Below are positions 4,951-53,780 of a DNA stretch of 64,000 bases, piece after piece. This stretch comes from an uncultured Candidatus Saccharibacteria bacterium (lineage in GTDB: Bacteria; Patescibacteriota; Minisyncoccia; Phycocordibacterales; UBA918). The notes beneath the pieces are model-generated. The model was not told the origin of the DNA and did not search any database. It saw only the letters and a program-made list of their open reading frames with translations. The stretch lies in assembly GCA_964552045.1 (NCBI GenBank), contig CAZKFF010000004.1:20368-84367 (forward strand), given 5' to 3'. Position numbers and translations under genes: made by a program. Position 1 is the first letter of the stretch; every line of letters begins with the position of its first letter.

Positions 4951-5721
4951 TCAGCGTATAAATGAATCAGCTAAAATGATCCCAAAATCCCTGAATGTCA
5001 TGCTACCGTCCCCGTTGAAGTCATACACCACGCTCCTGTTGCCCCATGCGGACATGAACCGGCTGATATCGGCTATGGTCACGTTTCCATCACCGTCGAT
5101 GTCAGTTACGATAATGATCGCAGCTGCACCCTGAAGATTGACACCGTTTGCGCCCTCTGACGCGAGATCCTGTCCATCAGTGATATAGAGCGTTGCGGAG
5201 TCTCCATTAGTACGCTCGACAGATACTTTTGAACCGCTTCCATCCCCAGCGAGCAATACCACATCCTCAACCGAGACCTGGGCCAGGCCGGTTTCAGTGG
5301 CGCGTGCATTGACCGTGGCGATAAGGTGATCGCCTTTGAATCCGCGTCGGAACGTTCCTCCCTGCAAAATAACCGTATTGTTCTCAACATATGGGTCTTG
5401 GGTCCAGAGCGTTATCACCGACTCTCCAGTATCAATGCCGAGCACTTCGATCTGATCCTTCGGAAATGACAGACTGATGTCCACTGCATTGACTGCAACA
5501 TGCGCATTGACATACACGCCAATTTGAAACGTATCCCCAGCATGAAGCGCCTGTTGGGATGATTCGATATGGATATAGGATGTGCCGCTGCTTATAACTG
5601 CAGCAACGCTCAGAAGAGCGGCAAATGCGAACACCAGCGGAAAAGCGTACCGCACGGTCGAACTCCTGTTTGGCAAGCAGGGCGCGCAAAAGTAGTAGAT
5701 GATTTTTCGTATCAGGTTCAT
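4951..5721 (-). CDS. Small secreted protein with an N-terminal cohesin-like beta-sandwich module and a C-terminal type I dockerin (two Ca-binding repeats: DIDGDGNVTIADISRFMSAW / DFNGDGSMTFRDFGIILADSF). Candidate adaptor.
   Basis: Signal peptide. The region HAGDTFQIGVYVNAHVAVNAVDISLSFPKDQIEVLGIDTGESVITLWTQ...VSVEDVVLLAGDGSG resembles the cohesin-like modules of 6400..8160 and 38454..40004. The C-terminus matches the dockerin EF-hand-like duplicated segment (D.D/N.DG.V...D... twice). Confidence 0.6.
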   Translation of the reverse strand: MNLIRKIIYYFCAPCLPNRSSTVRYAFPLVFAFAALLSVAAVISSGTSYIHIESSQQALHAGDTFQIGVYVNAHVAVNAVDISLSFPKDQIEVLGIDTGESVITLWTQDPYVENNTVILQGGTFRRGFKGDHLIATVNARATETGLAQVSVEDVVLLAGDGSGSKVSVERTNGDSATLYITDGQDLASEGANGVNLQGAAAIIIVTDIDGDGNVTIADISRFMSAWGNRSVVYDFNGDGSMTFRDFGIILADSFIR

Positions 5722-6389
5722 AGATCGAGAAGCTCCTGTCGCCTCTTGTCTATTTGTATGGAGAGAAGCTCGAGCGAATCTTTGGTCTCTTGGCCCTGTG
5801 CAAGAAGTGCTTGCATCTCATCTGAACCGATCGGCGACTGTGCCAAAAGCGCATCAATGATATCGCCCTGTATCTGTACAAGCTGCGTCGAGAGCCGGCT
5901 CCGCTCCTGTTCCATCTCAACAAGTTCTTTCCAGCCTGAAACATTGTAGGTGATTCCGTACGCCTTTTTGTCGAACAAAGCGAGTATGCCGATGAGATCC
6001 TCGTATACTTCAAACTCGCGGGAAAGCCGCGAGACCATGACTGCCTTGCGCTCCGCATAAAAATTACCGCATGCGCTGAAGAGCGACTCCACTTCGCGCA
6101 GCTCTGGCCTACCAAGCTGCGAGAGCGAACTCAGGAGTGTATCGAACCGCTCACGATTCTCCGGGGTGCAGTCCTTGATGATCTCTTCGACGACCGCATC
6201 GGCTCCGTCACGCGCAGTCAATTCAGCAATGGCAGCGAGCCTCGTCTCCTGCTCCGCTATAGTGAGCTGTGTCTTAAGTATGTATTCCGACTGTGCATCC
6301 TCTATGTATAGGGACGCAGCAAGAAATACGAGAAAAATAAAGAAGAACGCAAGCGCCAGGATCTTCTTATGGGAAAGCAATGCATGCAT
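5718..6389 (-). CDS. Membrane-anchored coiled-coil hypothetical protein (N-terminal TM, helical/charged ectodomain).
   Basis: 223-aa ORF overlapping both neighbours by 4 nt (operonic). N-terminal hydrophobic helix ILALAFFFIFLVFLAASLYI. Confidence 0.45.
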   Translation of the reverse strand: MHALLSHKKILALAFFFIFLVFLAASLYIEDAQSEYILKTQLTIAEQETRLAAIAELTARDGADAVVEEIIKDCTPENRERFDTLLSSLSQLGRPELREVESLFSACGNFYAERKAVMVSRLSREFEVYEDLIGILALFDKKAYGITYNVSGWKELVEMEQERSRLSTQLVQIQGDIIDALLAQSPIGSDEMQALLAQGQETKDSLELLSIQIDKRRQELLDL

Positions 6390-6399
6390 AGTATGTTCA

Positions 6400-8160
6400 T
6401 TAGTCTACCAAATCTTCCACATCTCCTATCTCCTTTTCTACGCGTTTCTGCGAGACTGCAAGCGCCTGTGTAAGTGACTCGAAGAGCGCCGCCTCTGCTT
6501 TCGTGAGCTTCTTCGTTTTGCGCGCGCCTTCAAGCTGCGCCTTCTGAGACCCCAGCTCCTTCTGGAGTTTTTGGAACTCCGACGCCAGCATGGACAGAGC
6601 TTCTTGTGCCTCTTTGCTGACGCCTTTCTTCAATGACCGTATCCGAGCCAAGAGAATGACGCCGCCGAGGAATAATACTGCACACAATGCGGCAAGCGGT
6701 ACGACAACCGACAGTACACTCACCAGAAATCCGCCGAGCCGTATGAATCCCGGCTGCTGTACCGCTATACGGATCGGATCGGAGACATCGCTCTGCGCGC
6801 CGTACTGGTCAATCGCCACCGCAGTGAGTTCATAGACACCGAGTGAGAGCCGTCCGTCAGGGATGAAAACGAACTCGCCGCTCTCCGAGCTTGTGACCTC
6901 GAATTCTCTCGCTGCGGAAGCTGTCGATACGCCGAGCCCGGTTTGCGTGAGGGTGACCTTCACCTTCGCATTTGGACGCGTAATACCCTTTATAACCGGT
7001 ATGACCTGTTCGTTGATCTCTGTTGGATATTCGGTGAACTGCGGCTTGTCGAATGCGAGAATGCCAAAGGAGAATGTACTGATGATGCTGTTGCCAGCCT
7101 CGTCGAACGCCTCAATGATCGCGGTATGGTGGCCAGGCTCCAGTGCGGGAAGCATCAGCGTGGAGCTGCCGGTCTCATCAATGAACTCATACGGCTCCTT
7201 CCCGTCAAGCTGCACGAGGAAACGCCGCACGAGCGAGGTCGCATCTTCAGTCTTCAGTACGAGTGTCTGCACCGGACTGGAAAGATCAGCAGCCTCAGGC
7301 AGTGCTATCTCGAACATCGCCGGTTTTTCTGTGTCCACTGCCAGACGGTAATGCGCGACCTTGCCCCAGCCTTCCGCGTTTTTGAACTGCATATGGAAAT
7401 ACGACACGCCTTCATCAAGGTCTTCAAGCGTGATGTCGCGGATCGGTGTGTCATAGACCTTCGTCGGTATCGATCCCGAATTCTCATCAAGAAGCGTGCG
7501 GACTGCGGTCACACCCTCAGGTACTGTCCAGCTCAATGAGGCGGTCTTCTGCGTATACCACGCAGCACTGTCCGGATGCGTTTCGGACTGTATCTGTGGC
7601 GCTCCGGGCGTGTTCGCAGGCGCAATGTACTCGATGGTTTCGGGCTCCGGCACGACATCAGCGGCACTTATGGTGTACGCACCGCCATTCATCGACGTGA
7701 GCACATTTGTCCCCTTTCCGTCAGCTGCAAGGACCGACCCGTTCGTAAACGATACTTTAGGACTGCCGGCGCTGTTTGCTTTGAACGTAACAGAAATAAC
7801 CGTGCCATTGCTTCCGGTGTACCCCGTAGGACTGCCGCCGCTGAACGTGATGGTACCGTTGGCATTGGAGTACGAAGGTTCTGCTGTCCATAGATTGAAA
7901 ATGCTCCCTTTGCTCACCCCGATGACGCTTATCTCCCTCGGATTGAATGAAAGCGTTCCGTCGGCGGCATTGATCGGTTCGCCGCTTGTGTTGACCACAA
8001 CGCGTGCGGTGAACGTCGATCCCGCGGTATAGACCCCTGTGCCGGGTGCAAGTGAAAGCGTTGCCGCATGAGCAGAAGCGCCGCAGAGCACAAACAGCGC
8101 GATGAGCGTGATTTTTATTGCGATGAGACTATGTGTATGGTACCGGTGCATGTTATTCAA
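6400..8160 (-). CDS. Cohesin-like domain surface protein anchored by a C-terminal TM helix followed by a cytoplasmic coiled-coil tail.
   Basis: 586 aa. Signal peptide (...CGASAHAATLSL). N-terminal module TGVYTAGSTFTARVVVNTSGEPINAADGTLSFNPREISVIGVSKGSIFNLWT...GTVISVTFKANSAGSPKVSFTNGSVLAADGKGTNVL. C-terminal LGGFLVSVLSVVVPLAALCAVLFLGGVILLA TM plus KKGVSKEAQEAL...QKELGSQKAQLEGARK coiled coil. Paralog of 38454..40004. Confidence 0.6.
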   Translation of the reverse strand: MNNMHRYHTHSLIAIKITLIALFVLCGASAHAATLSLAPGTGVYTAGSTFTARVVVNTSGEPINAADGTLSFNPREISVIGVSKGSIFNLWTAEPSYSNANGTITFSGGSPTGYTGSNGTVISVTFKANSAGSPKVSFTNGSVLAADGKGTNVLTSMNGGAYTISAADVVPEPETIEYIAPANTPGAPQIQSETHPDSAAWYTQKTASLSWTVPEGVTAVRTLLDENSGSIPTKVYDTPIRDITLEDLDEGVSYFHMQFKNAEGWGKVAHYRLAVDTEKPAMFEIALPEAADLSSPVQTLVLKTEDATSLVRRFLVQLDGKEPYEFIDETGSSTLMLPALEPGHHTAIIEAFDEAGNSIISTFSFGILAFDKPQFTEYPTEINEQVIPVIKGITRPNAKVKVTLTQTGLGVSTASAAREFEVTSSESGEFVFIPDGRLSLGVYELTAVAIDQYGAQSDVSDPIRIAVQQPGFIRLGGFLVSVLSVVVPLAALCAVLFLGGVILLARIRSLKKGVSKEAQEALSMLASEFQKLQKELGSQKAQLEGARKTKKLTKAEAALFESLTQALAVSQKRVEKEIGDVEDLVD

Positions 8161-9223
8161 TATCCTCCTCTGTCAACTCTGCTTTTCTTCTGGTGCGGCG
8201 TCTGAACAGGAACACAGCGATACCTGCACATACCCCAAGCAGTGCCACTATGGATGCTGCGAGCACGCCTATGATAAACAGATTGTCCTCGGAGAACGTC
8301 CGTTGACTTTCTTCTGGTACGAGCGTCGCGATGTATTCATTGCCTGCCTTATCTATTGCACGCACGCGGATGGTGCTGTTAAGCGACTGGTCATCAAGCA
8401 CATATGGGCTCTTTGCCTCTACCCATGGCGCGGTCTCCGCGCCCCAGCCAAAGAGGTTTTTCGAATCAAGCGGCTCTTCGATGACCTCGTAGTGATCGAC
8501 GCCAGATTGCTTGTCGGTAGTGTTGAAGGAGATGTGGTATTTTCCGAATTCATTGGGAATCCTACTAAGTGAAATGCTGAACTTCTCCGGCGGCAACTGG
8601 TCATTTGCGACCGCTTCCTGCCAGGGGTTCTGCACAGTTGCCCCCGCCTCCTTTGCCAGTAGAACTGAAGCACCAAACACCTGCGGTTCCACCCGTGTTC
8701 CAAAGCCGTCGTTGAGCAGCACGTGCGTCTGCGGATCGAAACCGATCGAGGCGACATTGCCGCTTTCGCTTTGACCGATCTGCAAACCCGGAGACTGGAA
8801 CAACAGATCGATAACATTGTTGGTCAGGCGCGGATCACCCGGGATACGTCCGCAGTAGCCATTGGGTATGCCTCCGGCGAAGGTGATCGTCCGATTCTCC
8901 TTGTTGATGACCGGCTCTTCTACCCAGAGGTTGAGAACGGAATTGCCCCGCGATGTATCAACCGGTTGGATGTTTTCGCTGTACGTAATAACCGCATCGA
9001 CGACGTTGACGCATTCACCTTCGTCTGTGTCGAGGCGCACCGAGATCACCATAGTGTCGCCGCGCTTAAGCTCAGCCTGATTAGGGTCCATGTACAAGCT
9101 GGCAGCATGAGCTTCGTGGGCAACACACAAGAGCAATACCTGTAGAGACAGCAGAAGCACACCTTTTTTCATGTAATTAAGTATACCGTGCACTTTTGCT
9201 TCAGGACTGGAATTGCTGTGCAT
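8153..9223 (-). CDS. Cohesin-like domain surface protein with a C-terminal TM anchor (LFIIGVLAASIVALLGVCAGIAVFLF-RRRTRRK).
   Basis: 356 aa. The likely start is the internal MKKGVLLL signal peptide. N-terminal module ASLYMDPNQAELKRGDTMVISVRLDTDEGECVNVVDAVITYSENIQPVDTSRGNSVLNLWVEEP follows the same pattern as the other cohesin-like modules. 8-nt overlap with the upstream gene. Confidence 0.5.
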   Translation of the reverse strand: MHSNSSPEAKVHGILNYMKKGVLLLSLQVLLLCVAHEAHAASLYMDPNQAELKRGDTMVISVRLDTDEGECVNVVDAVITYSENIQPVDTSRGNSVLNLWVEEPVINKENRTITFAGGIPNGYCGRIPGDPRLTNNVIDLLFQSPGLQIGQSESGNVASIGFDPQTHVLLNDGFGTRVEPQVFGASVLLAKEAGATVQNPWQEAVANDQLPPEKFSISLSRIPNEFGKYHISFNTTDKQSGVDHYEVIEEPLDSKNLFGWGAETAPWVEAKSPYVLDDQSLNSTIRVRAIDKAGNEYIATLVPEESQRTFSEDNLFIIGVLAASIVALLGVCAGIAVFLFRRRTRRKAELTEEDIE

Positions 9224-9255: not shown

Positions 9256-9286
9256 AACCTACTCGTGGTGGGAGATAGGTTTTTTG
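9256..9286 (-). terminator. Rho-independent terminator-like hairpin with A/T runs on both sides (aaaaaacctactcgtggtgggagataggtttttt), downstream of the 9422..10558 gene.
   Basis: GC-rich imperfect stem flanked by an A-run and a T-run. It lies in the 198-bp gap after a monocistronic minus-strand gene. Confidence 0.4.
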
Positions 9287-9421: not shown

Positions 9422-10558
9422 TTAAAAAGTAGGAGTTGCTATATAGGTAAGCGTAGTAGTGTAGTCGTCTCCCGCCTCCTGGAGGCTTGAGATCTCCACC
9501 TTGTAACCTACGCGTGCTGTACCTTCGCCAGTGCCGGCACCATTAGCTGGTCCGTTATGGCTCATCACGACGCGCGGAGTGGTACTCGCTGCGGCAAACT
9601 CGCCGGAGCCGAATTCATCTCCTGCATCGCGTGTTGTGTCTGAGTCATTCGAAGTGAAGCCCCAGTGACCATAGGTGTTCTCGCTGCCCATGACTTCAAC
9701 TGGTGAAGCCCACGCAGTTGGAGTATTGGTATCGGAACCTTCGACAAACCCGTCGATGTCAGCGCCAGTTGAAGACTGGAGCGCCTGGTCGAGCTGAACG
9801 GTTACAACGTATCCGTTGGCAGCGTTGGTGTTTACCGTAAGGTCCTGTGCAGTTGTAGTCGCATTCCCGTCAGTGAGTGCGCCGAATGGGATCGACGTCG
9901 TAGACGCCGCACCCGTAGTGGTTGCACCATTGACCGCCTGGTTTGCTCCTACCCCTGCAACAGTGAACGTGAAGATCGTATCCACAGCTGCAGTTACCTG
10001 CACACTGTTGATGATCGCCACCCGGGCTGTACCTGAATCGGCAGAACCTGCGGTTATGTCGATATCGTACGCGCCTTCCGCTGCAGGGTTCGAGATCTGC
10101 GTATCTCCTGCAGATCCGAATGTAGCGTTTGTACCAATTTCGATCGTCACTGTTGCGTTCGCGCCCAATGCGGCGTCAACGCTGGTGAGCGTGATGGATG
10201 ATGCTGTGGTAGCAACTCCCCACTGTTCACCGGACTGGTCTCCTTCGATGACCAATGTGTAATCGGACGTTGAGGCAAAGTCGATATCTTCAACCCCAAT
10301 GGACGAAGTATCAAAGTTGCCGTCAAAATCGATCACGATTGATTCACCCGATGCTATGCCTGTCGGCGTAGTAAAGGATATGGTGTGGTTTGATCCGGCG
10401 CTTGGCGCTGAATCAGTGAGCGTATCGCTGACATTGGTGAGGTTAGCGGCGCTCGCAAATTGGAGATTAGGAATCCCTAATGACCACAATGTGATCGCAA
10501 GACCCCCAATTATTGCAATAGTTTTGAGCAATGTAACGGTTTTTTCCGTTGTGTACAT
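9422..10558 (-). CDS. Secreted Thr/Ser/Gly/Ala-rich structural protein (paralog A). Conserved N-terminus (SDSAPSAGSNHTISF) and conserved C-terminal motif TTLTYIATPTF.
   Basis: 378 aa. SPI-type signal peptide (…LQFASAANLT). Paralogous along its full length to 45940..47058. Monocistronic and followed by a terminator. Confidence 0.6.
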   Translation of the reverse strand: MYTTEKTVTLLKTIAIIGGLAITLWSLGIPNLQFASAANLTNVSDTLTDSAPSAGSNHTISFTTPTGIASGESIVIDFDGNFDTSSIGVEDIDFASTSDYTLVIEGDQSGEQWGVATTASSITLTSVDAALGANATVTIEIGTNATFGSAGDTQISNPAAEGAYDIDITAGSADSGTARVAIINSVQVTAAVDTIFTFTVAGVGANQAVNGATTTGAASTTSIPFGALTDGNATTTAQDLTVNTNAANGYVVTVQLDQALQSSTGADIDGFVEGSDTNTPTAWASPVEVMGSENTYGHWGFTSNDSDTTRDAGDEFGSGEFAAASTTPRVVMSHNGPANGAGTGEGTARVGYKVEISSLQEAGDDYTTTLTYIATPTF

Positions 10559-10956
10559 AGCTCTTACGTTGTTTTAACTTACATTACTTCGCCATACCTC
10601 CTTTGTATGAAAAGGTATCCGAAGCGCAAGCCCGCTGTAATACGGCAGACTCAAATTGCGCATCAGGTCTCCACGCCTGCTGCGCAGAAACTAATGTAAG
10701 CACACTTGCCGCATAACATCCGGCTGCAGATGCCCGCACGGTACGCGAACCGTGCGCAGCGGTTCTAAAGGACCGCCTCTGCAACAAGTACATAATTATT
10801 GTAGCTCGCGTTGCAATGAATTGATGAGTTTCTCCTGTGCACAACCAGTCGGTGAACCTCGTGCACTGTCTATTCCAACAGGAGCAGTTCATGGATATAT
10901 GTCCCTCAGTATGATCTATCTCAAAAAACCTTCGGAAGCTCCACAGGTTCGCTTCC

Positions 10957-12102
10957 TCAGCCTGTCCAGTTAAACAACAATATGGAGAAATCCTCCAGGC
11001 CGACATTGCCGTTGCCGTTAATATCTGCTTTCGGATCGGAATCACCTCCCGAGGTCTGCCACCAGAATATGAGTATGGAAAAGTCAGTGAGGTTTACGGA
11101 ACCGTCACGGTTAAGGTCAGACGGAGTCGCGGCGGTGCCATTCACACCGACAAACAGCTGCACGGTGGTGCTGAAACTGCTTTCGGTAGTGAGCGTTCCG
11201 CTGCCGAGAATGAACCGCGCTCGTGCGGTGTGTTCGTCCGCAGAGAGGCCTGAGGTGGGGTAAGAAATGGTCCATGCGCCATTTGTTCCTGAGGTTGCAG
11301 AAAGCACCTCGTCACTGTCGTCGATATGCACCTCAACGCGTGTATTCGGGATCGTCTGTCCGGAAAAGACGACCGTATCGCCCGGGTTGATGGTCGCGTC
11401 ACTCACCGAGAGCGTCGGCGGAATGAGCACGCCAGACACATTCGTGATGGCACCCTGCGTGACATCGAAGGTCGTATTGTATGTCACTGACCGCACCCGG
11501 TTCAAATCAAACGACCAGAAGCCGAGCGAGACAGTGCCTGGAGACGCATTGGTAGCGAAATCGAACCGTCCAGAGCTGTCGGCGCGAACCGTACCCACTT
11601 CCTTGGCGTCGAGAAGCACATGCACTGTCTGATTGGGATAACCCCGACCGGTGATGCTTACCTGCGTATCGCCGAGCTCATCATCGCTTCCCCCGCTGCT
11701 TGAAGAGCCGCCGCCTGAAGAGCCGCCGCCGCCGCTCCCTGCTACTTCTACAGTACAATCCGCCGCACAAAAGTCACCGTCATCATTGTTGCCATCATCG
11801 CATTCTTCACCATGCAGGGTCTGCAGAATCGCGTCACCGCAGTATGGTCCGTAGTTGCAGTCAACGTCGCATTGTCTCCCGATGATCGTCGTGCTGTACA
11901 CGCCTGTCTCTCCCAGTACGTCGCACTCTTCTCCGTCGTCCACGAGCGCATTGCCGCAGATAGAGAGCGTCAGGGTTGTTGTCGCAATGAACCCGGGTGT
12001 GAGCTGTGCATATGCCACAGGAGTACACACTGCAATAGTGAGCGCAACGCCAAGAAGCAATAATGTCTTATGCATTAATCTCAACCGCGTGCGCATGCCC
12101 AT
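10957..12102 (-). CDS. Secreted dockerin protein: Myxococcus-type cysteine-rich repeats (CGNALVDDGEECD...CGDAILQTLHGEECDDGNNDDGDFCAADC), a Gly/Ser linker, an Ig-like middle region and a C-terminal type I dockerin (DLNRDGSVNLTDFSILIFWW / DINGNGNVGLEDFSILLFNW).
   Basis: 381 aa. Signal peptide. The Cys-rich repeat matches the CGDG..GEECDDGN pattern. The dockerin has a duplicated Ca-binding loop. Paralogous in middle and C-terminal parts to 40597..42507. Confidence 0.7.
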   Translation of the reverse strand: MGMRTRLRLMHKTLLLLGVALTIAVCTPVAYAQLTPGFIATTTLTLSICGNALVDDGEECDVLGETGVYSTTIIGRQCDVDCNYGPYCGDAILQTLHGEECDDGNNDDGDFCAADCTVEVAGSGGGGSSGGGSSSSGGSDDELGDTQVSITGRGYPNQTVHVLLDAKEVGTVRADSSGRFDFATNASPGTVSLGFWSFDLNRVRSVTYNTTFDVTQGAITNVSGVLIPPTLSVSDATINPGDTVVFSGQTIPNTRVEVHIDDSDEVLSATSGTNGAWTISYPTSGLSADEHTARARFILGSGTLTTESSFSTTVQLFVGVNGTAATPSDLNRDGSVNLTDFSILIFWWQTSGGDSDPKADINGNGNVGLEDFSILLFNWTG

Positions 12103-12105: not shown

Positions 12106-13065
12106 TTATTGCATCCGCCGATTTACCTTTCTCTGGCGTGCGGTATGAACGCCGAAGAGTAGGAGAGCGAGCAATGCAAGTATCGGAAGTATGACCGAAA
12201 CCTGGTGTGCCAATGAAAGTCCGAGGAATCCGAATCCGGCAATCTGCAGTGTTCCATACGGAAGAATATTGAGGTTCACTTCTCCCTCTTGTTTCACTTC
12301 ATCATCATTGAATATCTGATAACGCGCAATATAGGTGCCTGCCGGCAGACGCGTCGGCAGTTCGGCCACGATCTCTTCGGTTGCGTACGGAGCTACCTTC
12401 TCTATTTTTCCTTTGTTCCGGACGTCTTCAAGAAGCACATTGCCCGTAGCATCATATATCTTGAATGCAACCTTTGACGGAGCAACATCAATGTTACCAG
12501 TATTCTCAAGGAGCATACCGAACCTGATCTTTCCAGGGAAATACAGCCACGCGAACTTATGTCCTTCATTGAGATCAGATATGTTTATCTTGCGGATGCG
12601 GAAATCCTTGATCTCCTTGTCGATGACGCTGAGGTCGATATCAACCTGTGCACCAAGTGAAATGTTGACTGCGCCGGCCGAAACCTCATCATCAACTGCT
12701 CCTGTTTTGATACGGATCGCACCCGTGTAATTTTTGAACTCAGCATCTTCCGGCACCTTCACACGAATAGTCATGGGAACCTTCTGCTCACCGCGTGGCA
12801 GTTCGAACTCTGTGCCTTCCACGATCTCGATCCAGTCCAGTATCTCAGGAGCATCGACGACTACAGTTGCTTTCAGCGGCACGTTCGGATCTCCGCGGAC
12901 AAGAAGTATCTGCTGTTCATAGGTCGAGTTGCGGGTGAGGCTCGTGTTGCGTACGTATGGCGGGGTCACACCAAAACCAGCGAGGGCTAAATCGGCTCCA
13001 AGTATCACAAAGAGAAGTATTGCTATGCAGAACGATTTAGCAAAGTTCATTATGTATCCCGACAA
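12106..13065 (-). CDS. Cell-surface protein with signal peptide and a C-terminal TM anchor. Its fold is like the DUF916/DUF3324 proteins of Gram-positive WxL-type surface loci.
   Basis: 319 aa. The likely start is the internal MNFAKSF. C-terminal hydrophobic helix plus basic tail (ILPILALLALLLFGVHTARQRKVNRR). Architecture parallels 44668..45741. Confidence 0.45.
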   Translation of the reverse strand: MSGYIMNFAKSFCIAILLFVILGADLALAGFGVTPPYVRNTSLTRNSTYEQQILLVRGDPNVPLKATVVVDAPEILDWIEIVEGTEFELPRGEQKVPMTIRVKVPEDAEFKNYTGAIRIKTGAVDDEVSAGAVNISLGAQVDIDLSVIDKEIKDFRIRKINISDLNEGHKFAWLYFPGKIRFGMLLENTGNIDVAPSKVAFKIYDATGNVLLEDVRNKGKIEKVAPYATEEIVAELPTRLPAGTYIARYQIFNDDEVKQEGEVNLNILPYGTLQIAGFGFLGLSLAHQVSVILPILALLALLLFGVHTARQRKVNRRMQ

Positions 13066-13168: not shown

Positions 13169-15025
13169 CTACCACTGATTTGGATTGCTTACCGCAGCGT
13201 AGAATGTGTTTTCACCGGTGTATGACCCCGCAAGTGTGAGCGTGATCGGAACATGGATACCCCAGTAGGTGGTTCCTGTTGCCTGAGTACTGGTTGCCGT
13301 TGACTTGAATACATTCAAGTCAAGCCGCTTGTTTGTAGTAGATGAGAGTGTGTTGCCAGTTGCAGTTGCCGTACCGTATGACACTGTCGAAGTTGCATAC
13401 ACTTGGAAGCTCTCCGCAATGGTTGAAGTAGAGGAATTAGGACAGGTCACAGAGGTACTGTAGTTGATACACATTGATTCTCCCGTAAGCAGTTCGTCAA
13501 TACCCACATTTCCAGTCGCCCGTATGTCTGTTGTGGCAGAGAGCGGATCAGTCTGTTGCCCAGGCTCGAGTGAACCATACGGGATAGCGAGCGTATCGAG
13601 AGCCATAGACAGGAAGGCATTGAGATCTTGTCCAATCGCACTTTGGGTGAATACACTCACCGCACTGTCATCATCTATGGCAGAAACTGCTGCTCTCCAA
13701 TCTTCGCCGGCATAAAGCGAAGTCGAAGCCTGGTCGGTCGGGTCTGCGATGTACCACAGTGGGAATGTACACTCCCATGTCTGTGTGGTGTCCGTTGCAC
13801 CTCCACAATCGGAAGGTGTCGTTGTTGCGGCACATGAAAGATTCCAGGTTGTTGTCGCGACGGTGCTCGTATAACAATTGTTTGCATTGTATTCGCCTGA
13901 TGCATCACAGGAGGTCGTGCCTACACCCGAACGGTACACTGACAGTGCGTAATCTACGATCTCATCAGTTGCGGATGAGTTCTCGCAGCTATTATTGTCT
14001 GTTGCAACAAAGCTGAGTGTGAATCCGGTCGTCTCACCCGATTCCTGTGTAAGCGTAATATCTCCTCCATTATTGAGTGTGATTTGCGCGGCGTTTATAG
14101 AAGGAGCGGCATTGTCAACGGTGAGAACAGAGTCTGTGCCTTGCGTAGCTCCTGATGCCTCATGCCCGTGATTGTCGACAATGAAGCCAAAGGCTGCGTA
14201 GTTCTGGTCCTGGGTCGGGATTGGTATGACGTAGGTGGCTGTCGGGTCAGATGCAGACAAGGTTGAAGTCGCTAATGTGAGATCATCACAGGTATCTGTC
14301 GATGTGCTGAAGTTTGATGATGAGCAGACGATGAGCTGCACCGTGTCATTGGTCGGTACTGTGTCAGGGTCAGATGATGTCGCAGTAAAGGTAACGGTCG
14401 CGCCCGGAAGCACTGGGGAATCGTCCCAGAACGCGGTGAAGGTCGGACGACGGTTTACGTTGAATGGAGATGATGTCGTACCTGTTCCCTGTTTGAATGA
14501 TGCGTTACAGCGCGGATTGACCAGCACGGAGTCGCAGACCCAGGCGAACCAGTCATTTTGCTCGTTGAACGGAGCGACTTCTGTGGTGGTCGTTGCGGCA
14601 GTTGCCTGCGTACCGCTGATCGTCAGAGAAGAAACAGCCCATTGCAGCGATCCTCCACCACAGGTCGGCGCAGCTCCCGGGTTCGCAGTTGGCGCAGTTG
14701 ACCCGTCACAGATAAGCAGATAGTAGCTCTCCGCGTTCGAGTCTGTTGCAGTTGCGATCCACTGCACCGGTGATCCTGAATTAGTCGGTGTTGTTGTTGA
14801 AGATTCGGTCAGCTCCTGCGCATCCACAGTCCATTGTGGCGGTGTGTTGAGCACGGTCACTGATGTGGTCGCCTGGCTTTGGGCTTCCGCATGGTTCAGT
14901 TCCTGTGCGCCTAAGTTGAGGAAAAATGCTACCGCGAACACAAACACGCCCAAAAGCGCTGTTATCACAGTTATTTTCCCTGCCGTGTTTATATAGTGTG
15001 GCAGCTCTTTCATGTTGTACGACAT
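13169..15025 (-). CDS. Secreted Thr/Ser-rich protein whose C-terminal ~300 aa (from ~14113 down) is a Cys-containing domain homologous to the extreme C-terminus of the giant protein.
   Basis: 618 aa. Signal/TM (ITVITALLGVFVFAVAFFLNLGA). Alignable blocks with giant-protein residues ~6090-6350: YRSGVG..C...NNCY, Y.ADATD....Y.GE.W.AAV, YWGI..P...NP. Confidence 0.55.
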   Translation of the reverse strand: MSYNMKELPHYINTAGKITVITALLGVFVFAVAFFLNLGAQELNHAEAQSQATTSVTVLNTPPQWTVDAQELTESSTTTPTNSGSPVQWIATATDSNAESYYLLICDGSTAPTANPGAAPTCGGGSLQWAVSSLTISGTQATAATTTTEVAPFNEQNDWFAWVCDSVLVNPRCNASFKQGTGTTSSPFNVNRRPTFTAFWDDSPVLPGATVTFTATSSDPDTVPTNDTVQLIVCSSSNFSTSTDTCDDLTLATSTLSASDPTATYVIPIPTQDQNYAAFGFIVDNHGHEASGATQGTDSVLTVDNAAPSINAAQITLNNGGDITLTQESGETTGFTLSFVATDNNSCENSSATDEIVDYALSVYRSGVGTTSCDASGEYNANNCYTSTVATTTWNLSCAATTTPSDCGGATDTTQTWECTFPLWYIADPTDQASTSLYAGEDWRAAVSAIDDDSAVSVFTQSAIGQDLNAFLSMALDTLAIPYGSLEPGQQTDPLSATTDIRATGNVGIDELLTGESMCINYSTSVTCPNSSTSTIAESFQVYATSTVSYGTATATGNTLSSTTNKRLDLNVFKSTATSTQATGTTYWGIHVPITLTLAGSYTGENTFYAAVSNPNQW

Positions 15026-15088: not shown

Positions 15089-16297
15089 TTATTCATAGCG
15101 GATAGCATCAAGCGGATTGAGCGATGCGGCACGCCGTGCGGGGAAAATTCCGGTGAGGTAGCCCACTCCGGCTGAGAAAAGGGCGATAAATACCAGGAAA
15201 TTGAGCGGAAATGAGAAGAGAGTCACCGCCTGCCCGCCAAATTGTCCGGCGGCAAGATTGAGCATGAGGTTTATGATGATCCCGAGCGCTACCCCCATGA
15301 CGATCCCGGATACACCTCCGAGAAAGCCTACAATGATGGACTCTGAAACGAACAGCCACTTGATGTCCGACGGCGATGCACCAATGGTGCGCATGATGCC
15401 GATCTCCTTGGTTCGCTCCAACAGTGTAACGGTCATCGTATTGAACATGCCGATGGCGGACACAAGGAGTGCGATCCCTCCGAATGTTGCAAGGACCACC
15501 TGGACTCCCTGGAAGATCTTTGACGCCTGTTCAACCGTCTTAGAAAGCGCCGTCACGCGGTATCCCTCCTCGATAAGCTGATCTTCCACGAGCTGCAGGA
15601 ACTCATTGCTCTCAACACGGACCTGCACCCGCTCGAACTCCTCAATGCCAATATGACTGCGAAGCTCCGGCAGCATCATGAGCGCATTGAGAACGCCCTC
15701 CTCTTTAGTGATGCCGCGAACCGTGTATTCTTTGTCAATGAAAACCTCGTCCACCTCATCGGTGCCGTCTTCTGCCGGTACGAGTATCCTGAACTTCACT
15801 TTCTCACCAACAAAGGAAGCCGGATCGTCGATCCCGAAGAGCTTGAGCACCGCCGGGGAGAGCATAACACTACTGGTATCACCTGCATCCGCATCAGTGA
15901 ACACTTCGCCCTCTGTTGCGGTCACGCCCGCATAGCGGAGGTACGGCGGTTCGGCGCCTTGAACGAACACATTGCCAGTAAGACCCTTGTACGTCACCAA
16001 TGCCGGGAACCGCGCAAGCGGTGCTGCGTCCAGTACATGATCCATAGCCTCAAATTGCGCCACCGTCTCTTCAGTCAGCCGCAGGTTCTGGGCGCCGGTT
16101 GCCGAGACCCCGAGTGACAGAAGTGTTTCTCCGAACACGATCTGCTCGAGGATGATCTGCTGCAGTCCGAACCCAAGCCCGACGAGCACCACCACCGCAC
16201 CAGTGCCCACTCCCATGCCCAGGATAGTGAGCCACGTACGCATTGGGTTCGTTTTGAATGCTCTCGTGGAGAGCTGTGCCAAGTCCTGTAAACGCAT
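15089..16297 (-). CDS. ABC transporter permease, FtsX/MacB-LolE family.
   Basis: 402 aa. N-terminal TM, large periplasmic loop, C-terminal 3-TM FtsX-like bundle (…IGIMRTIGASPSDIKWLFVSESIIVGFLGG…). 4-nt overlap (ATGA) with the upstream ATPase. Confidence 0.8.
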   Translation of the reverse strand: MRLQDLAQLSTRAFKTNPMRTWLTILGMGVGTGAVVVLVGLGFGLQQIILEQIVFGETLLSLGVSATGAQNLRLTEETVAQFEAMDHVLDAAPLARFPALVTYKGLTGNVFVQGAEPPYLRYAGVTATEGEVFTDADAGDTSSVMLSPAVLKLFGIDDPASFVGEKVKFRILVPAEDGTDEVDEVFIDKEYTVRGITKEEGVLNALMMLPELRSHIGIEEFERVQVRVESNEFLQLVEDQLIEEGYRVTALSKTVEQASKIFQGVQVVLATFGGIALLVSAIGMFNTMTVTLLERTKEIGIMRTIGASPSDIKWLFVSESIIVGFLGGVSGIVMGVALGIIINLMLNLAAGQFGGQAVTLFSFPLNFLVFIALFSAGVGYLTGIFPARRAASLNPLDAIRYE

Positions 16298-16299
16298 AT

Positions 16300-17622
16300 C
16301 TAACTCTTATAACTGACATCGACGCCTTGCGCGATGATCTTTTCGAAATAACGCGTGATATCCTCCGCTTCATCGTAGGTGAGACCGAGTCCGCCTGAAC
16401 TGACCCCGACGCTGAGCTTCTCAAGGAATTCCTGCTCGCCGCTGACTCCAACCACACGGTCGGCAATAAGCTCAACCAGGTTCTCGTCCTGCTTTTTCGA
16501 GAGCTTCATGTGGTGAATGCGGAGCAGATGATCGCGCAGACGTTCGGCGAGCTTGTGCTGATCAAAGAATGCATGCGCATTCTCAAACTGCTTGCGAAAT
16601 CTGCGAATATCATCTGCCTGCGAGAGCAGCTTGTCAGCCGTATGTACGATCCTTCGCGCATCCTTTTCAGGAATACCGACTCCGCCCCGGTCGTACGCAA
16701 GCACGAGCATCTTCGTGACAGCATCCTTCTCTACCCTTCCAGAGATAAAATATTGCATCGCTGTCTCAAGCCGCTCGAGCTGGCTGAAGGTGTAGTCCTG
16801 TGTCACATAGTTGACCAGACTCTTGACCCGGAGCGATTCAATGGAGTCATAGGGATAGAGACGTGCGAGCTGTTCGAGCTCGGTCACAATGGTCTCACCT
16901 TCTTTCACCGGCTTTATCTGCTTGCGCTGCGGATTGACCACTTCACGGACAATGCGCCCATCCTTGAGGTAATACACGCGGTGCGCATAGCTTAAGTGCG
17001 CTGCATTGTGCGACACCATGATGATGGTACGCTTGTCGAACGTATTGATCTCGTCAATCTTGTCCATAACCTGCTGTGTAGAAACAGAGTCAAGATTTCC
17101 GGTAGGTTCATCCGCGAGCAGGATTTTTGGATCATTGACCATGCTCCGCGCAACCGATACTCGCTGTTGCTGGCCTCCTGAAAGCATGGACGGAATCTTA
17201 TGGGATACGTGGCCGACGCCAAAACGTTCAAGCAGAGCCTGTGCACGCCGCTCGCGCGTCGGTCTGTCCGCATTGGCGAAGATCATGGGTAGCGCCACAT
17301 TATCAAGCACGGTAAGCGAACCGATGAGGTTGAACGATTGGAATATGATACCCATCACATACCGCTGGAAGTAGATACGGTCTTCAATAGGTATCTGGTA
17401 TATGTCCTCTCCGCCGATGAGCATTGTGCCGCCGCCAGGAGGGAGCGATCCCTGGATGGCATACATGAGTGTGGACTTGCCGGAACCGGACGCCCCGAAG
17501 AGGATGATGTACTCACCCTCATATATGTCGGTGCTTGCGTTAGAGAGCGCTTTGAATTCGTTCGATTTCCCTTTGTTGTAGGTGATATCGAGATTACGAC
17601 AAATAATAAGAGGCTTTGCCAT
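16300..17622 (-). CDS. ABC transporter ATP-binding protein (MacB/LolD-like) with an unusual ~200-aa C-terminal extension.
   Basis: Walker A GASGSGKSTLMYAI, ABC signature LSGGQQQRVSVARSM, Walker B ILLADEPTGNLD. The extra C-terminal helical domain has no obvious family. Confidence 0.85.
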   Translation of the reverse strand: MAKPLIICRNLDITYNKGKSNEFKALSNASTDIYEGEYIILFGASGSGKSTLMYAIQGSLPPGGGTMLIGGEDIYQIPIEDRIYFQRYVMGIIFQSFNLIGSLTVLDNVALPMIFANADRPTRERRAQALLERFGVGHVSHKIPSMLSGGQQQRVSVARSMVNDPKILLADEPTGNLDSVSTQQVMDKIDEINTFDKRTIIMVSHNAAHLSYAHRVYYLKDGRIVREVVNPQRKQIKPVKEGETIVTELEQLARLYPYDSIESLRVKSLVNYVTQDYTFSQLERLETAMQYFISGRVEKDAVTKMLVLAYDRGGVGIPEKDARRIVHTADKLLSQADDIRRFRKQFENAHAFFDQHKLAERLRDHLLRIHHMKLSKKQDENLVELIADRVVGVSGEQEFLEKLSVGVSSGGLGLTYDEAEDITRYFEKIIAQGVDVSYKS

Positions 17623-42561: not shown

Positions 42562-43368
42562 TCACAAAACGCACCTGAATCCGATTGCGACTCCGGAAGC
42601 GGTCGGGAGCGTCTGAGCATGCACTGCATAGATGCCGGCATCGAGTCCGCTGCCGTAGAATCCACCGCGAAGCACGCCGAACGCTCCATCATTTGATGAC
42701 CACAGATAATCCTGATAGAACAATTCCGACGGAGAGCTACCGGTAAGGACTGCCATGCCAGAAGCATCGACCTGGGTGACATAGCCTGAGTGTGGCAACT
42801 CTCTTCCTGCATACATGCCCTGGAGCACGTCATCCGTAGTCCACTCCCACACATTTCCAATGCTGTCATATGCACCCACAGCTGAAATACATTCCTCATG
42901 GGTGCCGGTTGGTGAGGCGCCGCTTGCATCGATGTTACATGTGTGCGCATCATCAGGAGTGCCTACCGAAGAGAGATACCACTCATCGCTGCGAGGCAGC
43001 CGCTTCCCTGCGCGCATGCAGGCGGTCAGAGCTTGCTCACGGGTTATATACCGCCACGCGTCGGCGTCCGGCTTCGACTCCGCCTCGCATTGTGCGGTAT
43101 CCATATTCTCTCTGGTCTGCAACTCGTTTTGGGGATTCTTCTGCGGACACGAAGCCGCAGCGGACGCCTCGTACATGTCAACACACCGGTATGTGATTGC
43201 CATGGGCACTTCGACCATACCAGCAGGGCATGCACTGTCGTCTCCGGCTTTGATCACCTGACCCAACAGCGTCGAACGTGAACCCTGCAGCGTGTCGGCC
43301 GCATCGATCCCGAGCGCGGTTATGAGAACAGCGCCACAGATAACCGCCCCGACTTTGAGCAATTTCAT
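42562..43368 (-). CDS. Secreted FGE-sulfatase (SUMF1/formylglycine-generating-enzyme-like) domain protein, copy 1.
   Basis: 268 aa. Signal peptide. C-terminal family signature GVLRGGFYGSGLDAGIYAVH...GFRCVL plus conserved Cys/Trp-rich core (…CPQ.PQNE..T.EN...A.CE......W..I....A...C..AGKRLP...EWY...G). Confidence 0.7.
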   Translation of the reverse strand: MKLLKVGAVICGAVLITALGIDAADTLQGSRSTLLGQVIKAGDDSACPAGMVEVPMAITYRCVDMYEASAAASCPQKNPQNELQTRENMDTAQCEAESKPDADAWRYITREQALTACMRAGKRLPRSDEWYLSSVGTPDDAHTCNIDASGASPTGTHEECISAVGAYDSIGNVWEWTTDDVLQGMYAGRELPHSGYVTQVDASGMAVLTGSSPSELFYQDYLWSSNDGAFGVLRGGFYGSGLDAGIYAVHAQTLPTASGVAIGFRCVL

Positions 43369-43465
43369 GCTCTAAGTATACACGCATGTGCGCTGTAGCT
43401 TACATATTTATCCAAAACGTGTGCGGAGTCACACGCACATTTTCTCGCGGTACGTGCAAAGTTCT

Positions 43466-45741: not shown

Positions 45742-45888
45742 AAGTTCGTAACGTGAATAACAGATTCATTCTAGCACTCGTTGCTCTGCTTCCTAACGAA
45801 TTCATGTACATAACCCGTCATATATATATGTCGAACAGGTATACCGACCGTGACGGTCAAAAACATGTTTGGCCTTGCGTAAAAGAAA

Positions 45889-53709: not shown

Positions 53710-53780
53710 GAAAATAAGGTGGTTACTGTAGCACGCACACGTGAAGACCGGATGAATTGCTCACACGGGCCGCTTTTTTG

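What the first reader, a model, noticed from the sequence alone, without database searches (positions are those of the whole stretch)
9422..10558. Paralogous monocistronic secreted proteins with conserved termini and strong terminators: candidate abundant structural (S-layer or fibre) subunits
9422..10558 and 45940..47058 share a conserved post-signal N-terminus (...SDSAPSA[GA]SNHTI[SE]F...P TG...GE.IVI.F) and an identical C-terminal TTLTYIATPTF. They are Thr/Ser/Gly/Ala-rich and acidic. Each is followed by a strong rho-independent terminator (9256..9286 and 45889..45907) and is preceded by a ~100-200-bp non-coding leader.

Stand-alone, terminator-flanked, low-complexity secreted proteins are characteristic of very highly expressed envelope structural proteins. 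The conserved terminal beta-strand motif suggests strand-complementation assembly.
Basis: inference. Interest (0 to 1): 0.55.

Follow-up and report, generated by a model that had tools for sequence, protein, structure and literature searches.

The report
Pam-like pilus subunits of Paceibacteria
The two paralogous secreted proteins are most likely the main building blocks of a thin surface filament recently found in ultra-small CPR bacteria (the Pam pilus), here as a divergent, unannotated branch that is widespread in a different CPR class and comes with its own chaperone-like genes and two conserved RNA elements.

Summary
9422..10558(-) and 45940..47058(-) are 52% identical secreted paralogs of about 34 kDa mature size, pI 4.05, Thr/Ser/Gly/Ala-rich, with a shared N-terminal motif and an identical C-terminus.

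They belong to a large Patescibacteria-only family: 1,419 clusters at 50% identity and 401 loci in species-representative genomes. Pfam does not cover it.

The C-terminal domain gives a full-length but sub-threshold match to NCBIfam CPR_Pam_pilin_C. The AlphaFold model (pLDDT 91.7) shows the Pam pilin layout: signal peptide, beta-sandwich N-domain, conserved unpaired linker, Ig-like C-domain.

Each paralog sits in a rigidly conserved cluster that encodes a membrane-anchored two-Ig protein. Its predicted fold matches WxLIP and the chaperone-usher chaperones CfaA, CsuC and FimC.

Best reading: divergent Paceibacteria Pam-like pilins assembled by donor-strand exchange. The fibre and strand-complementation idea is supported; the S-layer alternative is not, and the genes are not stand-alone.

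New here:
- cohesin/dockerin partner genes;
- a roughly 230-nt 5' leader with strong covariation;
- a 3' hairpin whose invariant 16-mer follows pilin genes in 40 of 41 independent contigs.

Polymerisation itself is inferred, not shown.

The parts
9422..10558 (-). Paralog 1 (PAR1), 378 aa: candidate major Pam-like pilin
   Evidence: ORF. Family searches. NF058581 hit at E 2.1e-5 covering profile positions 2-148 of 148. AF2 model with pLDDT 91.7.
10448..10558 (-). Sec-type signal peptide, residues 1-37, with cleavage predicted after FASA
   Evidence: Hydrophobic helix at residues 5-26 in the AF2 model. A37, A38 and N39 are invariant or nearly invariant in the family. No signal-peptide predictor was available.
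10013..10447 (-). N-terminal beta-sandwich domain, residues 38-182. The N-terminal motif SDTLSDSAPSA.SNHTI.F is conserved; the core and surface vary.
   Evidence: About 10 strands in the model. Conservation profile. The same domain occurs in 40597..42507.
9974..10012 (-). Inter-domain linker, residues 183-195 (NSVQVTAAVDTIF): candidate donor strand
   Evidence: No secondary-structure partner in the monomer model, and a pLDDT dip to 82. V186, V188, A190, V192 and T194 are at least 90% conserved, in an alternating pattern. The donor role is inferred by analogy with PamA/PamB.
9425..9973 (-). C-terminal Ig-like domain, residues 196-378: candidate strand-accepting domain, ending in the invariant TYIATPTF
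   Evidence: NF058581 CPR_Pam_pilin_C matches residues 219-378. 72 of 118 diverse relatives also match, best E 1.5e-10. This is the most conserved part of the protein.
10559..10803 (-). -10-like box TACAAT (10803..10798) and a roughly 230-nt structured 5' leader. Elements: P1 10791-10780 paired with 10713-10702; P2 10778-10758; P4 10734-10715; invariant GTGGAGAC 10674-10667; invariant ACAACGTA.GAG just before the ATG.
   Evidence: Alignment of 53 loci: 22 of 24 pairs show compensatory changes, 93.2% of cells are paired against 30-47% for slid controls, covariation score 0.683 against 0.10-0.15. No Rfam match.
9256..9286 (-). 3' terminator hairpin with the invariant core TATCTCCCACCACGAG (loop CCACCAC)
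   Evidence: In independent metagenome contigs, 40 of 41 hairpin-context copies lie directly after a pilin gene.
45940..47058 (-). Paralog 2 (PAR2), 372 aa: second Pam-like pilin
   Evidence: NF058581 hit at E 5.8e-4.
45882..45904 (-). Intrinsic terminator of PAR2 (CCCCTcaaGGGGG plus T-run)
44668..45741 (-). Candidate membrane-anchored chaperone: signal peptide, two Ig-like domains, two C-terminal TM helices. WxLIP/PapD-like.
12106..13065 (-). Paralog of 44668..45741 in the PAR1 cluster (true start probably the ATG at 13050): second candidate chaperone
   Evidence: BLASTP 1.6e-5. hhalign 98%, E 2e-13 over 244 columns. Position conserved in 46-48 loci.
8153..9223 (-). Cohesin-like domain plus Ig domain plus C-terminal TM helix, directly downstream of PAR1
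   Evidence: Homologous to the Pfam-Cohesin proteins 6400..8160 and 38454..40004. Present downstream of the pilin in 55 of 80 loci.
40597..42507 (-). Pilin N-domain fused to a Gly/Ser spacer, an Ig domain and a dockerin: candidate pilus-associated adaptor
   Evidence: HMM E 1.6e-16 to pilin positions 21-196 only. hhalign 98.7%. Dockerin_1 at 8.4e-7. Its C-terminal 380 aa are homologous to 10957..12102.
10957..12102 (-). Secreted Ig/dockerin protein directly upstream of PAR1
   Evidence: Pfam Big_6, Big_13, Dockerin_1. Conserved position.

Best explanation
PAR1 and PAR2 are the major subunits of a Pam-type pilus in a Paceibacteria (Parcubacteria) bacterium. The Pam pilus is the donor-strand-exchange filament recently described in CPR bacteria.

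Proposed steps:
1. Each pilin is exported by Sec and its signal peptide is cleaved after A-x-A. The export signal is visible in the sequence; cleavage is inferred.
2. The Ig-like C-terminal domain, whose edge is the invariant C-terminal strand ...TLTYIATPTF, is first held by a membrane-anchored two-Ig chaperone. These are 12106..13065 for PAR1 and 44668..45741 for PAR2. The chaperone fold and the gene linkage are shown; the interaction is inferred.
3. The chaperone strand is then replaced by the conserved inter-domain linker (residues 183-195) of the next pilin. This gives a linear, non-covalent filament whose variable N-domains face outward. This step is inferred from PamA/PamB.
4. Family members with LVIVD, lectin or Flg_new N-terminal extensions would be adhesin-carrying subunits.
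5. The cohesin-plus-TM and dockerin proteins of the same clusters may tether the fibre or accessory proteins to the membrane. This is speculative.

The pilin gene has its own promoter, a structured 5' leader whose first helix starts at the inferred 5' end, and a conserved terminator. That layout fits high, separately set expression of the major subunit relative to its neighbours.
For: - **Family.** At least 1,723 related clusters at 90% identity. 1,419 clusters at 50% identity, 214 of them at E<=1e-30. 401 loci in species-representative genomes; all 80 retrieved loci are Patescibacteria or unclassified MAGs, many labelled Paceibacteria, Kaiserbacteria, Nomurabacteria or Parcubacteria, and several contigs carry two copies.
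- **Homology to Pam pilins.** NCBIfam NF058581 CPR_Pam_pilin_C matches PAR1 residues 219-378 across profile positions 2-148 of 148 (E 2.1e-5), and PAR2 at 5.8e-4. 72 of 118 diverse relatives match, best E 1.5e-10.
- **Architecture.** The AF2 model (pLDDT 91.7) shows an N-terminal helix, a beta-sandwich at residues 40-182, an unpaired linker at 183-195 and a beta domain at 196-378. This is the layout described for PamA/PamB. The mature size of about 34 kDa is close to PamB at 38.7 kDa.
- **Conservation.** It is highest in the C-terminal strand, other C-domain motifs, the linker and the N-terminal motif, and lowest in the N-domain core. The Pam preprint also reports the donated linker and the C-domain binding site as the most conserved parts.
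- **Linkage.** Gene order is fixed across dozens of species.
- **Module position.** The module always ends at the protein's C-terminus. Longer relatives carry adhesin-type N-terminal domains.
Against: - The NF058581 scores (20-25 bits) are far below the curated cut-off of 55 bits, also in distant relatives. Under NCBI's cut-off these proteins would not be named Pam pilins.
- PamA/PamB sequences and structures could not be compared directly. No sequence match exists in the PDB, Foldseek on the PDB up to April 2026 returned none, and no supplements are held.
- PAR1 and PAR2 have no cysteines, whereas PamA/B have 2-3 cysteine pairs.
- No PamT-, PamE- or PamR-like neighbour was detected by HMM or hhalign.
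- The chaperone's best structural match is WxLIP, whose WxL clients are not known to polymerise.
- No multimer prediction, coordinates, expression or proteome data were available, so polymerisation is entirely inferred.
Confidence: 0.65

Rival explanations
1. A non-polymerising surface complex of the WxL/Csc type. The protein is displayed as a monomer or small oligomer on the cell surface. It is held by strand insertion from the membrane-anchored WxLIP-like partner, possibly together with cohesin-dockerin contacts, and acts as an adhesin or coat protein without forming a filament.
For: [quoted passage not shown]
- As in WxL proteins, the conserved domain is C-terminal and the N-terminal parts vary.
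Against: - No WxL domain (PF13731) is detected in PAR1, PAR2 or 118 relatives.
- The only family-level match is to the Pam pilin C-domain.
- The strongly conserved alternating linker is what a donor strand would look like.
- The partner aligns just as fully to genuine pilus chaperones.
Confidence: 0.17
2. An S-layer protein that forms a two-dimensional lattice over the cell, as seen by cryo-EM on some ultra-small bacteria.
For: - The protein is acidic, Thr/Ser-rich, secreted and probably abundant. It has its own promoter, a long 5' leader and a terminator, as many S-layer genes do.
- The neighbour 12106..13065 gives a weak hit to PACE-CTERM 'putative S-layer protein' (1.1e-4 against a cut-off of 110 bits).
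Against: - No SLH or other wall-anchoring module is present.
- It is a small two-Ig protein whose C-domain matches a pilin model.
- A dedicated chaperone-like partner is linked to it.
- Adhesin-fused relatives keep the module at the C-terminus, which is typical of pilus tip subunits rather than lattice proteins.
Confidence: 0.07
3. A soluble or wall-associated Ig-fold protein with another role, for example a BslA-like hydrophobic coat or a YcnI-like metal-binding protein, with no assembly by strand exchange.
Against: These hits cover a single Ig domain at 11-16% identity. They do not explain the two-domain layout, the invariant free C-terminus or the linked chaperone-like gene.
Confidence: 0.05

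Closest known systems
Pam pili of Ca. Mycosynbacter amalyticus (PamA/PamB pilins, PamC/PamD chaperones; Troman et al. 2026, bioRxiv 10.64898/2026.03.03.709456; NCBIfam NF058581)
   Same: - Found only in CPR bacteria.
- Sec signal peptide, beta-sandwich N-domain, conserved linker and Ig-like C-domain.
- The C-domain is detectably homologous.
- PapD/FimC-like chaperone genes with C-terminal TM helices lie in the same cluster.
- Two pilin paralogs per genome.
   Different: - The class is Paceibacteria rather than Saccharimonadia or Microgenomatia; the preprint's text names no Paceibacteria.
- Scores lie below the curated family cut-off.
- No cysteines.
- The two pilins sit in two separate clusters about 35 kb apart, not in one pam operon.
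- No recognisable PamT, PamE or PamR.
- The clusters contain cohesin- and dockerin-bearing proteins, a MacB-type ABC/FtsX pair and FGE-sulfatase-like genes, rather than ATP-synthase or CorB neighbours.
- The pilin mRNA has a conserved structured 5' leader and a specific 3' hairpin.
Chaperone-usher pili (Pap, Fim, CFA/I, Csu)
   Same: - The chaperone candidate has the two-domain PapD-like fold.
- The pilin has an invariant free C-terminal strand, as chaperone-usher pilins do, where that strand lines the groove.
- Assembly by donor-strand exchange is inferred.
   Different: - No outer membrane and no usher.
- The chaperone is membrane-anchored.
- The pilin has two domains, and the donor is probably an internal linker rather than an N-terminal extension.
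WxL / WxLIP (Csc) surface-protein clusters of Lactobacillales (PMC10599100; PDB 9i1y)
   Same: - The partner protein has the WxLIP layout: DUF916-like Ig domain, second Ig domain and TM anchor, about 320-360 aa.
- The WxLIP partner is predicted to insert a strand into its WxL client.
- Clusters typically pair one such partner with two client proteins.
   Different: - The client proteins here have no WxL domain or W-x-L motifs.
- WxL proteins are described as peptidoglycan-bound and non-filamentous.
- Different phylum.
Other donor-strand-exchange fibres: TasA, archaeal bundling pili, TLP-1 fibrils from pond water (PMC11494351; PDB 9ikk)
   Different: - Those are single-domain subunits that donate an N-terminal strand.
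- No sequence relationship.
- TLP-1's closest predicted-structure matches are bacterial proteins, the top one from a Flavobacteriales bacterium.
Cellulosome-type cohesin-dockerin scaffolds
   Same: Pfam Cohesin and Dockerin_1 domains occur in neighbouring genes, some with TM anchors.
   Different: No glycoside hydrolases are present. Here the modules accompany pilin and chaperone genes, and any role in anchoring the fibre is speculative.

Membership tests
Pam pilus pilins (NF058581; Troman et al. 2026) | N-terminal Sec signal peptide | tested here: met
   Basic n-region, 17-residue hydrophobic core and A-S-A before a conserved A-N. Helix at residues 5-26 in the model. No dedicated predictor was run.
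Pam pilus pilins (NF058581; Troman et al. 2026) | Beta-sandwich N-domain, single linker strand, Ig-like C-domain | tested here: met
   AF2 pLDDT 91.7, with strands at 41-182, an unpaired segment at 183-195 and strands at 196-376. This rests on a prediction only.
Pam pilus pilins (NF058581; Troman et al. 2026) | C-domain scores above the curated cut-off of NF058581 (55 bits) | tested here: not met
   24.7 and 20.0 bits, and 19.6-24.7 bits in distant relatives. Homology is nevertheless supported: full profile coverage, and 72 of 118 relatives at E<=0.01 with a best of 1.5e-10.
Pam pilus pilins (NF058581; Troman et al. 2026) | Linker strand of one subunit inserted into the C-domain of the next (donor-strand exchange) | not testable with these tools
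   No multimer prediction or model coordinates were available. The only support is indirect: conservation of the linker and of the C-terminal strand.
Pam pilus pilins (NF058581; Troman et al. 2026) | PapD/FimC-like chaperone with a C-terminal TM helix encoded in the same cluster | tested here: met
   For 44668..45741. Its paralog 12106..13065 lies in the PAR1 cluster. Synteny.
Pam pilus pilins (NF058581; Troman et al. 2026) | Restricted to CPR/Patescibacteria | tested here: met
   All 80 retrieved loci, out of 401, come from Patescibacteria or unclassified MAGs.
Pam pilus pilins (NF058581; Troman et al. 2026) | Paired cysteines (disulfides) and very high abundance | tested here: not met
   PAR1 and PAR2 have no cysteines; some relatives have a Cys pair in the N-domain. 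Abundance was not tested. Neither feature is strictly defining.
WxL surface proteins (PF13731) with WxLIP partner | C-terminal WxL domain with two Trp-x-Leu motifs | tested here: not met
   No PF13731 hit in PAR1, PAR2 (E<=1) or in 118 relatives.
WxL surface proteins (PF13731) with WxLIP partner | Adjacent WxLIP (DUF916 + DUF3324 + TM helix) | tested here: met
S-layer proteins | Cell-wall anchoring module (SLH or similar) and a lattice-forming protein | tested here: not met
   No such Pfam or NCBIfam domain. Lattice formation is not testable here.
Sortase-dependent Gram-positive pilins | C-terminal LPXTG-type sorting signal with a hydrophobic tail | tested here: not met
   The protein ends ...TYIATPTF, with no sorting motif or TM segment. 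Fold similarity is only at the Ig-domain level.
Chaperone-usher pili | Outer-membrane usher and a periplasmic soluble chaperone | tested here: not met
   No usher-like protein among the window ORFs scanned. The chaperone candidate carries TM helices.

The most novel reading that the evidence does not exclude
Paceibacteria, the largest CPR class, carry a distinct lineage of Pam-type pili.

- The fibre or its accessory proteins would be tethered to the cytoplasmic membrane through cohesin-dockerin pairs. The candidates are a protein that fuses the pilin N-domain to a dockerin (40597..42507) and cohesin proteins with a TM anchor (8153..9223, 6400..8160, 38454..40004).
- The major pilin mRNA would be governed by a previously undescribed structured 5' leader RNA and by a pilin-specific 3' hairpin with an invariant CCACCAC loop. 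These could act as stabilisers or as binding sites for a trans-acting regulator.
- If so, many 'pili-like structures' of Patescibacteria now ascribed to type IV pili could be this system.
Probability: 0.25. Interest if true: 0.75.

Novelty: new variant of a known kind. Interest (0 to 1): 0.6.

Why it matters
CPR/Patescibacteria are thought to live attached to host cells, but their surface structures are almost entirely unannotated. A recent review ascribes their pili-like structures to type IV pili (PMC13293708).

The Pam pilus was identified only in 2026, in one cultured Saccharimonadia species, and was reported mainly from Saccharimonadia and Microgenomatia. This window points to a large, divergent sister family in Paceibacteria. 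The family has 1,419 clusters at 50% identity and 401 loci in species-representative genomes, and the curated model does not capture it.

The work also provides:
- a conserved gene-cluster blueprint of pilin, membrane-anchored chaperone and cohesin/dockerin proteins;
- two conserved RNA elements that could serve as markers and as entry points to regulation.

It also links the Firmicutes WxLIP proteins, pilus chaperones and the CPR proteins by fold. That raises the testable idea that WxLIP-type proteins are chaperones for strand-complemented surface assemblies.

Tried and rejected
- **Pfam** on both paralogs gave nothing usable.
- **PDB sequence search** with the family profile gave nothing relevant.
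- **Foldseek on the PDB** gave only generic two-Ig adhesins and integrin legs at TM about 0.2.
- **The afdb50 fold library** was unavailable.
- **Exact-protein contig look-up** for the NCBI version of PAR2 found nothing.
- **WxL idea.** I first thought the C-terminal ...TLTYIATPTF might be a degenerate WxL motif, because the downstream gene hits WxLIP_PGBD. No WxL domain is detectable in 118 relatives, so I dropped membership and kept the partner resemblance.
- **Further pilin-like neighbours.** HMM and hhalign searches for tip, terminator or anchor subunits found only the N-domain of 40597..42507. The protein 13169..15025, whose C-terminus looks vaguely similar (…TFYAAVSNPNQW), showed no detectable relationship.
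- **The two downstream partners** 8153..9223 and 44668..45741 are not related to each other. The true counterpart of 44668..45741 in the PAR1 cluster is 12106..13065.
- **Rfam** gave no family for either RNA element.
- **The PAR2-type 5' leader** has conserved sequence blocks but too little variation to support a structure: 3 of 18 pairs are compensatory.
- **The tiny ORF** MAK* after an AGGAGG in the PAR1 leader is not conserved.
Full report
**Observation**

The window holds two full-length paralogs on the minus strand: 9422..10558 (378 aa) and 45940..47058 (372 aa). BLASTP gives 52% identity end to end, E 1e-121.

Each starts with a basic and hydrophobic segment followed by A-x-A. The mature proteins are 34.2 and 34.6 kDa, pI 4.05, and have no Cys. 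Thr+Ser+Gly+Ala makes up 45-51%, against 34.5% in the other proteins of the window.

The terminator of paralog 2 is found by the scanner at 45904..45892. The hairpin of paralog 1 at 9286..9256 is not, because its outer stem is A/U-rich, but it proves to be conserved (see the RNA section).

Two corrections apply. The public record annotates paralog 2 with an N-terminal extension (459 aa) that its 355-391-aa homologs do not support.

**Family**

Both paralogs have very many relatives, at least 1,723 clusters at 90% identity among the scored candidates. None carries a Pfam domain or a meaningful name. An exhaustive HMMER search of 1.84 billion representatives finds 1,419 clusters at E<=0.001 and 214 at E<=1e-30. 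The match nearly always runs to the last residue of the target, and some targets of 570-1,022 aa have N-terminal extensions.

In one genome per species, 401 loci encode a relative. The 80 loci retrieved are all Patescibacteria or unclassified MAGs. Many are labelled Paceibacteria, Kaiserbacteria, Nomurabacteria or Parcubacteria, and several contigs carry two copies.

In the window itself there are exactly two full-length copies. One further protein, 40597..42507, shares only the N-terminal domain.

**What it is**

Pfam and a PDB sequence search give nothing. NCBIfam gives one hit: NF058581 'CPR_Pam_pilin_C, Pam pilus system pilin subunit'.
- It covers PAR1 residues 219-378 against profile positions 2-148 of 148, at E 2.1e-5 and 24.7 bits (cut-off 55).
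- PAR2 scores E 5.8e-4.
- Of 118 diverse relatives, 72 hit the same model at E<=0.01, best 1.5e-10.
- Distant relatives also stay near 20-25 bits.

So this is a sister group of the curated family rather than part of it.

The model stems from a 2026 preprint (bioRxiv 10.64898/2026.03.03.709456). In Ca. Mycosynbacter amalyticus, cryo-EM identified two pilins, PamA (55 kDa) and PamB (38.7 kDa).
- Each has a signal peptide, a nine-strand beta-sandwich N-domain, a single linker strand and a truncated Ig-like C-domain.
- That C-domain accepts the linker of the next subunit (donor-strand exchange).
- PapD/FimC-like chaperones with a C-terminal TM helix (PamC, PamD) are encoded alongside.
- The pilins were the 2nd and 9th most abundant proteins.
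- Homologs were reported mainly in Saccharimonadia and Microgenomatia. Paceibacteria are not named in the text.

**Structure prediction**

With a 141-sequence alignment, AlphaFold2 gives pLDDT 91.7 and pTM 0.60. The model has a helix at residues 5-26, about ten strands between 41 and 182, a segment at 183-195 with no secondary-structure partner (pLDDT dips to 82), and a second beta domain at 196-376.

Across 118 diverse members, conservation is highest in these regions:
- the C-terminal strand;
- the motifs TNA.NGF, GH.G, H.GP.DG and LQEA..DY of the C-domain;
- the linker (V.VTA.V.T.F.F.V, with alternating hydrophobic residues);
- the mature N-terminus.

It is lowest in the core of the N-domain. 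The Pam preprint likewise reports the donated linker and the C-domain binding site as the most conserved regions.

**Partners and synteny**

The gene directly downstream of PAR2, 44668..45741, hits Pfam WxLIP_PGBD (DUF916) at 1.1e-7. Its AF2 model has pLDDT 89.3 and pTM 0.76, with a signal helix, two beta-sandwiches and two C-terminal TM helices.

A paralog, 12106..13065, lies two genes upstream of PAR1 (BLASTP 1.6e-5; hhalign 98%, E 2e-13 over 244 columns).

Gene order is fixed across species:
- **Type 1:** ABC ATPase – FtsX/MacB permease – 13169..15025 – chaperone-like – Ig/dockerin protein – PILIN – cohesin-like+TM (8153..9223) – cohesin+TM (6400..8160) – 5718..6389 – cohesin+dockerin – beta-propeller protein. 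29 loci show the full order from FtsX to the last gene; many more show parts of it.
- **Type 2:** CAP – Y-family polymerase – PILIN – chaperone-like – two FGE-sulfatase-like genes – pilin-N-domain+dockerin (40597..42507) – cohesin+TM (38454..40004).

So the genes are not stand-alone, although each pilin has its own transcription signals.

Longer family members carry LVIVD, Laminin_G_3 or Flg_new domains in front of the pilin module, as adhesin-tipped subunits would.

**Mechanism**

Shown:
- the export signal;
- the two-domain predicted fold;
- homology of the C-domain to the Pam pilin model;
- the chaperone-like fold and tight linkage of a membrane-anchored partner;
- restriction to CPR bacteria.

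Inferred:
- the chaperone caps the C-domain groove, which is bordered by the invariant C-terminal strand with its free carboxylate, as in chaperone-usher pilins;
- the linker of the incoming subunit displaces the chaperone strand, giving a linear filament;
- the variable N-domains are exposed.

Which strand is donated remains uncertain. The conserved mature N-terminus is an alternative donor.

Tethering through cohesin-dockerin pairs is speculative. The one concrete hint is the fusion of a pilin N-domain to a dockerin, located next to a TM-anchored cohesin protein.

**RNA elements (side findings)**

*5' leader.* PAR1-type genes share a -10-like TACAAT (window 10803..10798) and a leader of about 230 nt.
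- In 53 loci, RNAalifold predicts a long-range helix P1 that starts at the inferred 5' end (10791-10780 paired with 10713-10702).
- It also predicts two hairpins, P2 (10778-10758) and P4 (10734-10715, loop CAGCC).
- An invariant GTGGAGAC follows, and an invariant ACAACGTAGAG lies just before the ATG. There is no canonical Shine-Dalgarno sequence.
- 22 of 24 pairs show compensatory changes. 93.2% of cells are paired against 30-47% with slid partners, and the covariation score is 0.683 against 0.10-0.15.
- Rfam has no match.

*3' hairpin.* It has a nearly invariant core TATCTCCCACCACGAG, with loop CCACCAC and a covarying inner stem (UCUC/GAGA or CCCC/GGGG).
- The 9-mer CCCACCACG occurs in 59 of 80 loci, in 54 of them only once. 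In 58 it lies on the coding strand just after the pilin stop.
- 43 of those rows are in hairpin context. Of the 41 with upstream DNA, 40 follow a gene ending ...TY[IV]ATP[TIM]F.
- The other 77 rows are context-free chance hits in unrelated DNA.

PAR2-type genes have ordinary tetraloop terminators and a leader with conserved blocks but little covariation.

**Comparison and novelty**

Functionally the system most resembles Pam pili, and beyond them chaperone-usher pili without an usher. By membership it fails the curated NF058581 cut-off and differs in five ways:
- taxon;
- absence of cysteines;
- split gene organisation;
- accessory genes;
- the RNA elements.

I file it as a new variant of a known, very recently described kind. 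The partner protein ties the Firmicutes WxLIP family (PMC10599100) to pilus chaperones by fold, which is itself a lead.

**Verdict**

Its fibre and strand-complementation reading is supported, the S-layer reading is not, and 'stand-alone' is wrong. Confidence that these are donor-strand-exchange pilins of the Pam type is 0.65. The main residual alternative is a non-polymerising WxL/WxLIP-like surface complex.

Noticed in passing
window 10559..10803 (- strand): Conserved, structured 5' leader of about 230 nt upstream of PAR1-type pilin genes.

Its parts are a long-range helix at the inferred 5' end, two hairpins, an invariant GTGGAGAC and an invariant ACAACGTAGAG before the ATG.

22 of 24 pairs are compensatory across 53 species-level loci. 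There is no Rfam match. It is a candidate new cis-regulatory or stabilising RNA.
   Followed up: partly
window 9256..9286 (- strand); L001-L080 just 3' of the pilin stop; L081-L200: Terminator hairpin with an invariant 16-mer TATCTCCCACCACGAG (loop CCACCAC), specific to this pilin gene. 40 of 41 hairpin-context copies in independent metagenome contigs follow a pilin gene.

Why a terminator loop is invariant across proteins only about 50% identical is unexplained. The same CTCCCACCAC string also occurs inside the 5' leader of L003/4/5/8/13, whose 3' hairpins have the variant stem.
   Followed up: partly
window 10667..10674 and 9262..9270; PAR2-type leaders in L022-L076: The invariant GUGGAGA of the PAR1 leader is complementary to UCUCC(C)AC in the PAR1 3' hairpin, with one bulged C. 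It is perfectly complementary to the invariant CUCUCCAC of PAR2-type leaders.

This could be chance for a 7-mer, or it could reflect 5'-3' pairing or cross-talk between the two mRNAs.
   Followed up: no
window 40597..42507 (-): A 636-aa secreted protein fuses the pilin N-terminal domain (residues 34-202, hhalign 98.7%) to a Gly/Ser spacer, an Ig domain and a dockerin.

Its C-terminal 380 aa are homologous to 10957..12102, the gene upstream of PAR1. The next large gene, 38454..40004, is a cohesin protein with a TM anchor.
   Followed up: partly
window 4951..5721, 6400..8160, 8153..9223, 38454..40004 (-): Four paralogous proteins have a cohesin-like N-domain. Three carry a C-terminal TM helix, and two of those also have a cytoplasmic coiled-coil tail. 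One carries a dockerin.

This is a cohesin-dockerin network in a non-cellulolytic CPR genome, conserved next to the pilin genes.
   Followed up: partly
window 19323..38375 (-): A single 6,350-aa ORF lies between the two pilin clusters. It was not analysed.
   Followed up: no
window 53050..58351 (-): A sortase gene sits next to a SpaA/DUF7601-like protein and a 1,128-aa DUF11/DUF7507 protein. This is a separate candidate cluster for a sortase-dependent surface protein or pilus in the same window.
   Followed up: no
window 42562..44269 (-): Two paralogous FGE-sulfatase-like proteins are conserved in the PAR2-type cluster between the chaperone-like gene and the dockerin protein. They may modify surface proteins.
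   Followed up: no
window 15089..17622 (-): A MacB-type ABC ATPase and FtsX permease pair is conserved at the head of the PAR1-type cluster in many loci. Its role is unknown.
   Followed up: no
window 47059..47325 (-): The public NCBI record annotates PAR2 as 459 aa from an upstream start (P0121). Its homologs are 355-391 aa, and the signal peptide starts at the ATG at 47058. The upstream part overlaps the conserved leader, so this is probably a mis-called start.
   Followed up: partly
L085, L096, L104 and many other loci, between the pilin stop and the terminator: A short perfect palindrome, CTCCAAGCTTGGAG, recurs between the pilin stop codon and the terminator hairpin in many relatives. It is absent from this window.
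   Followed up: no
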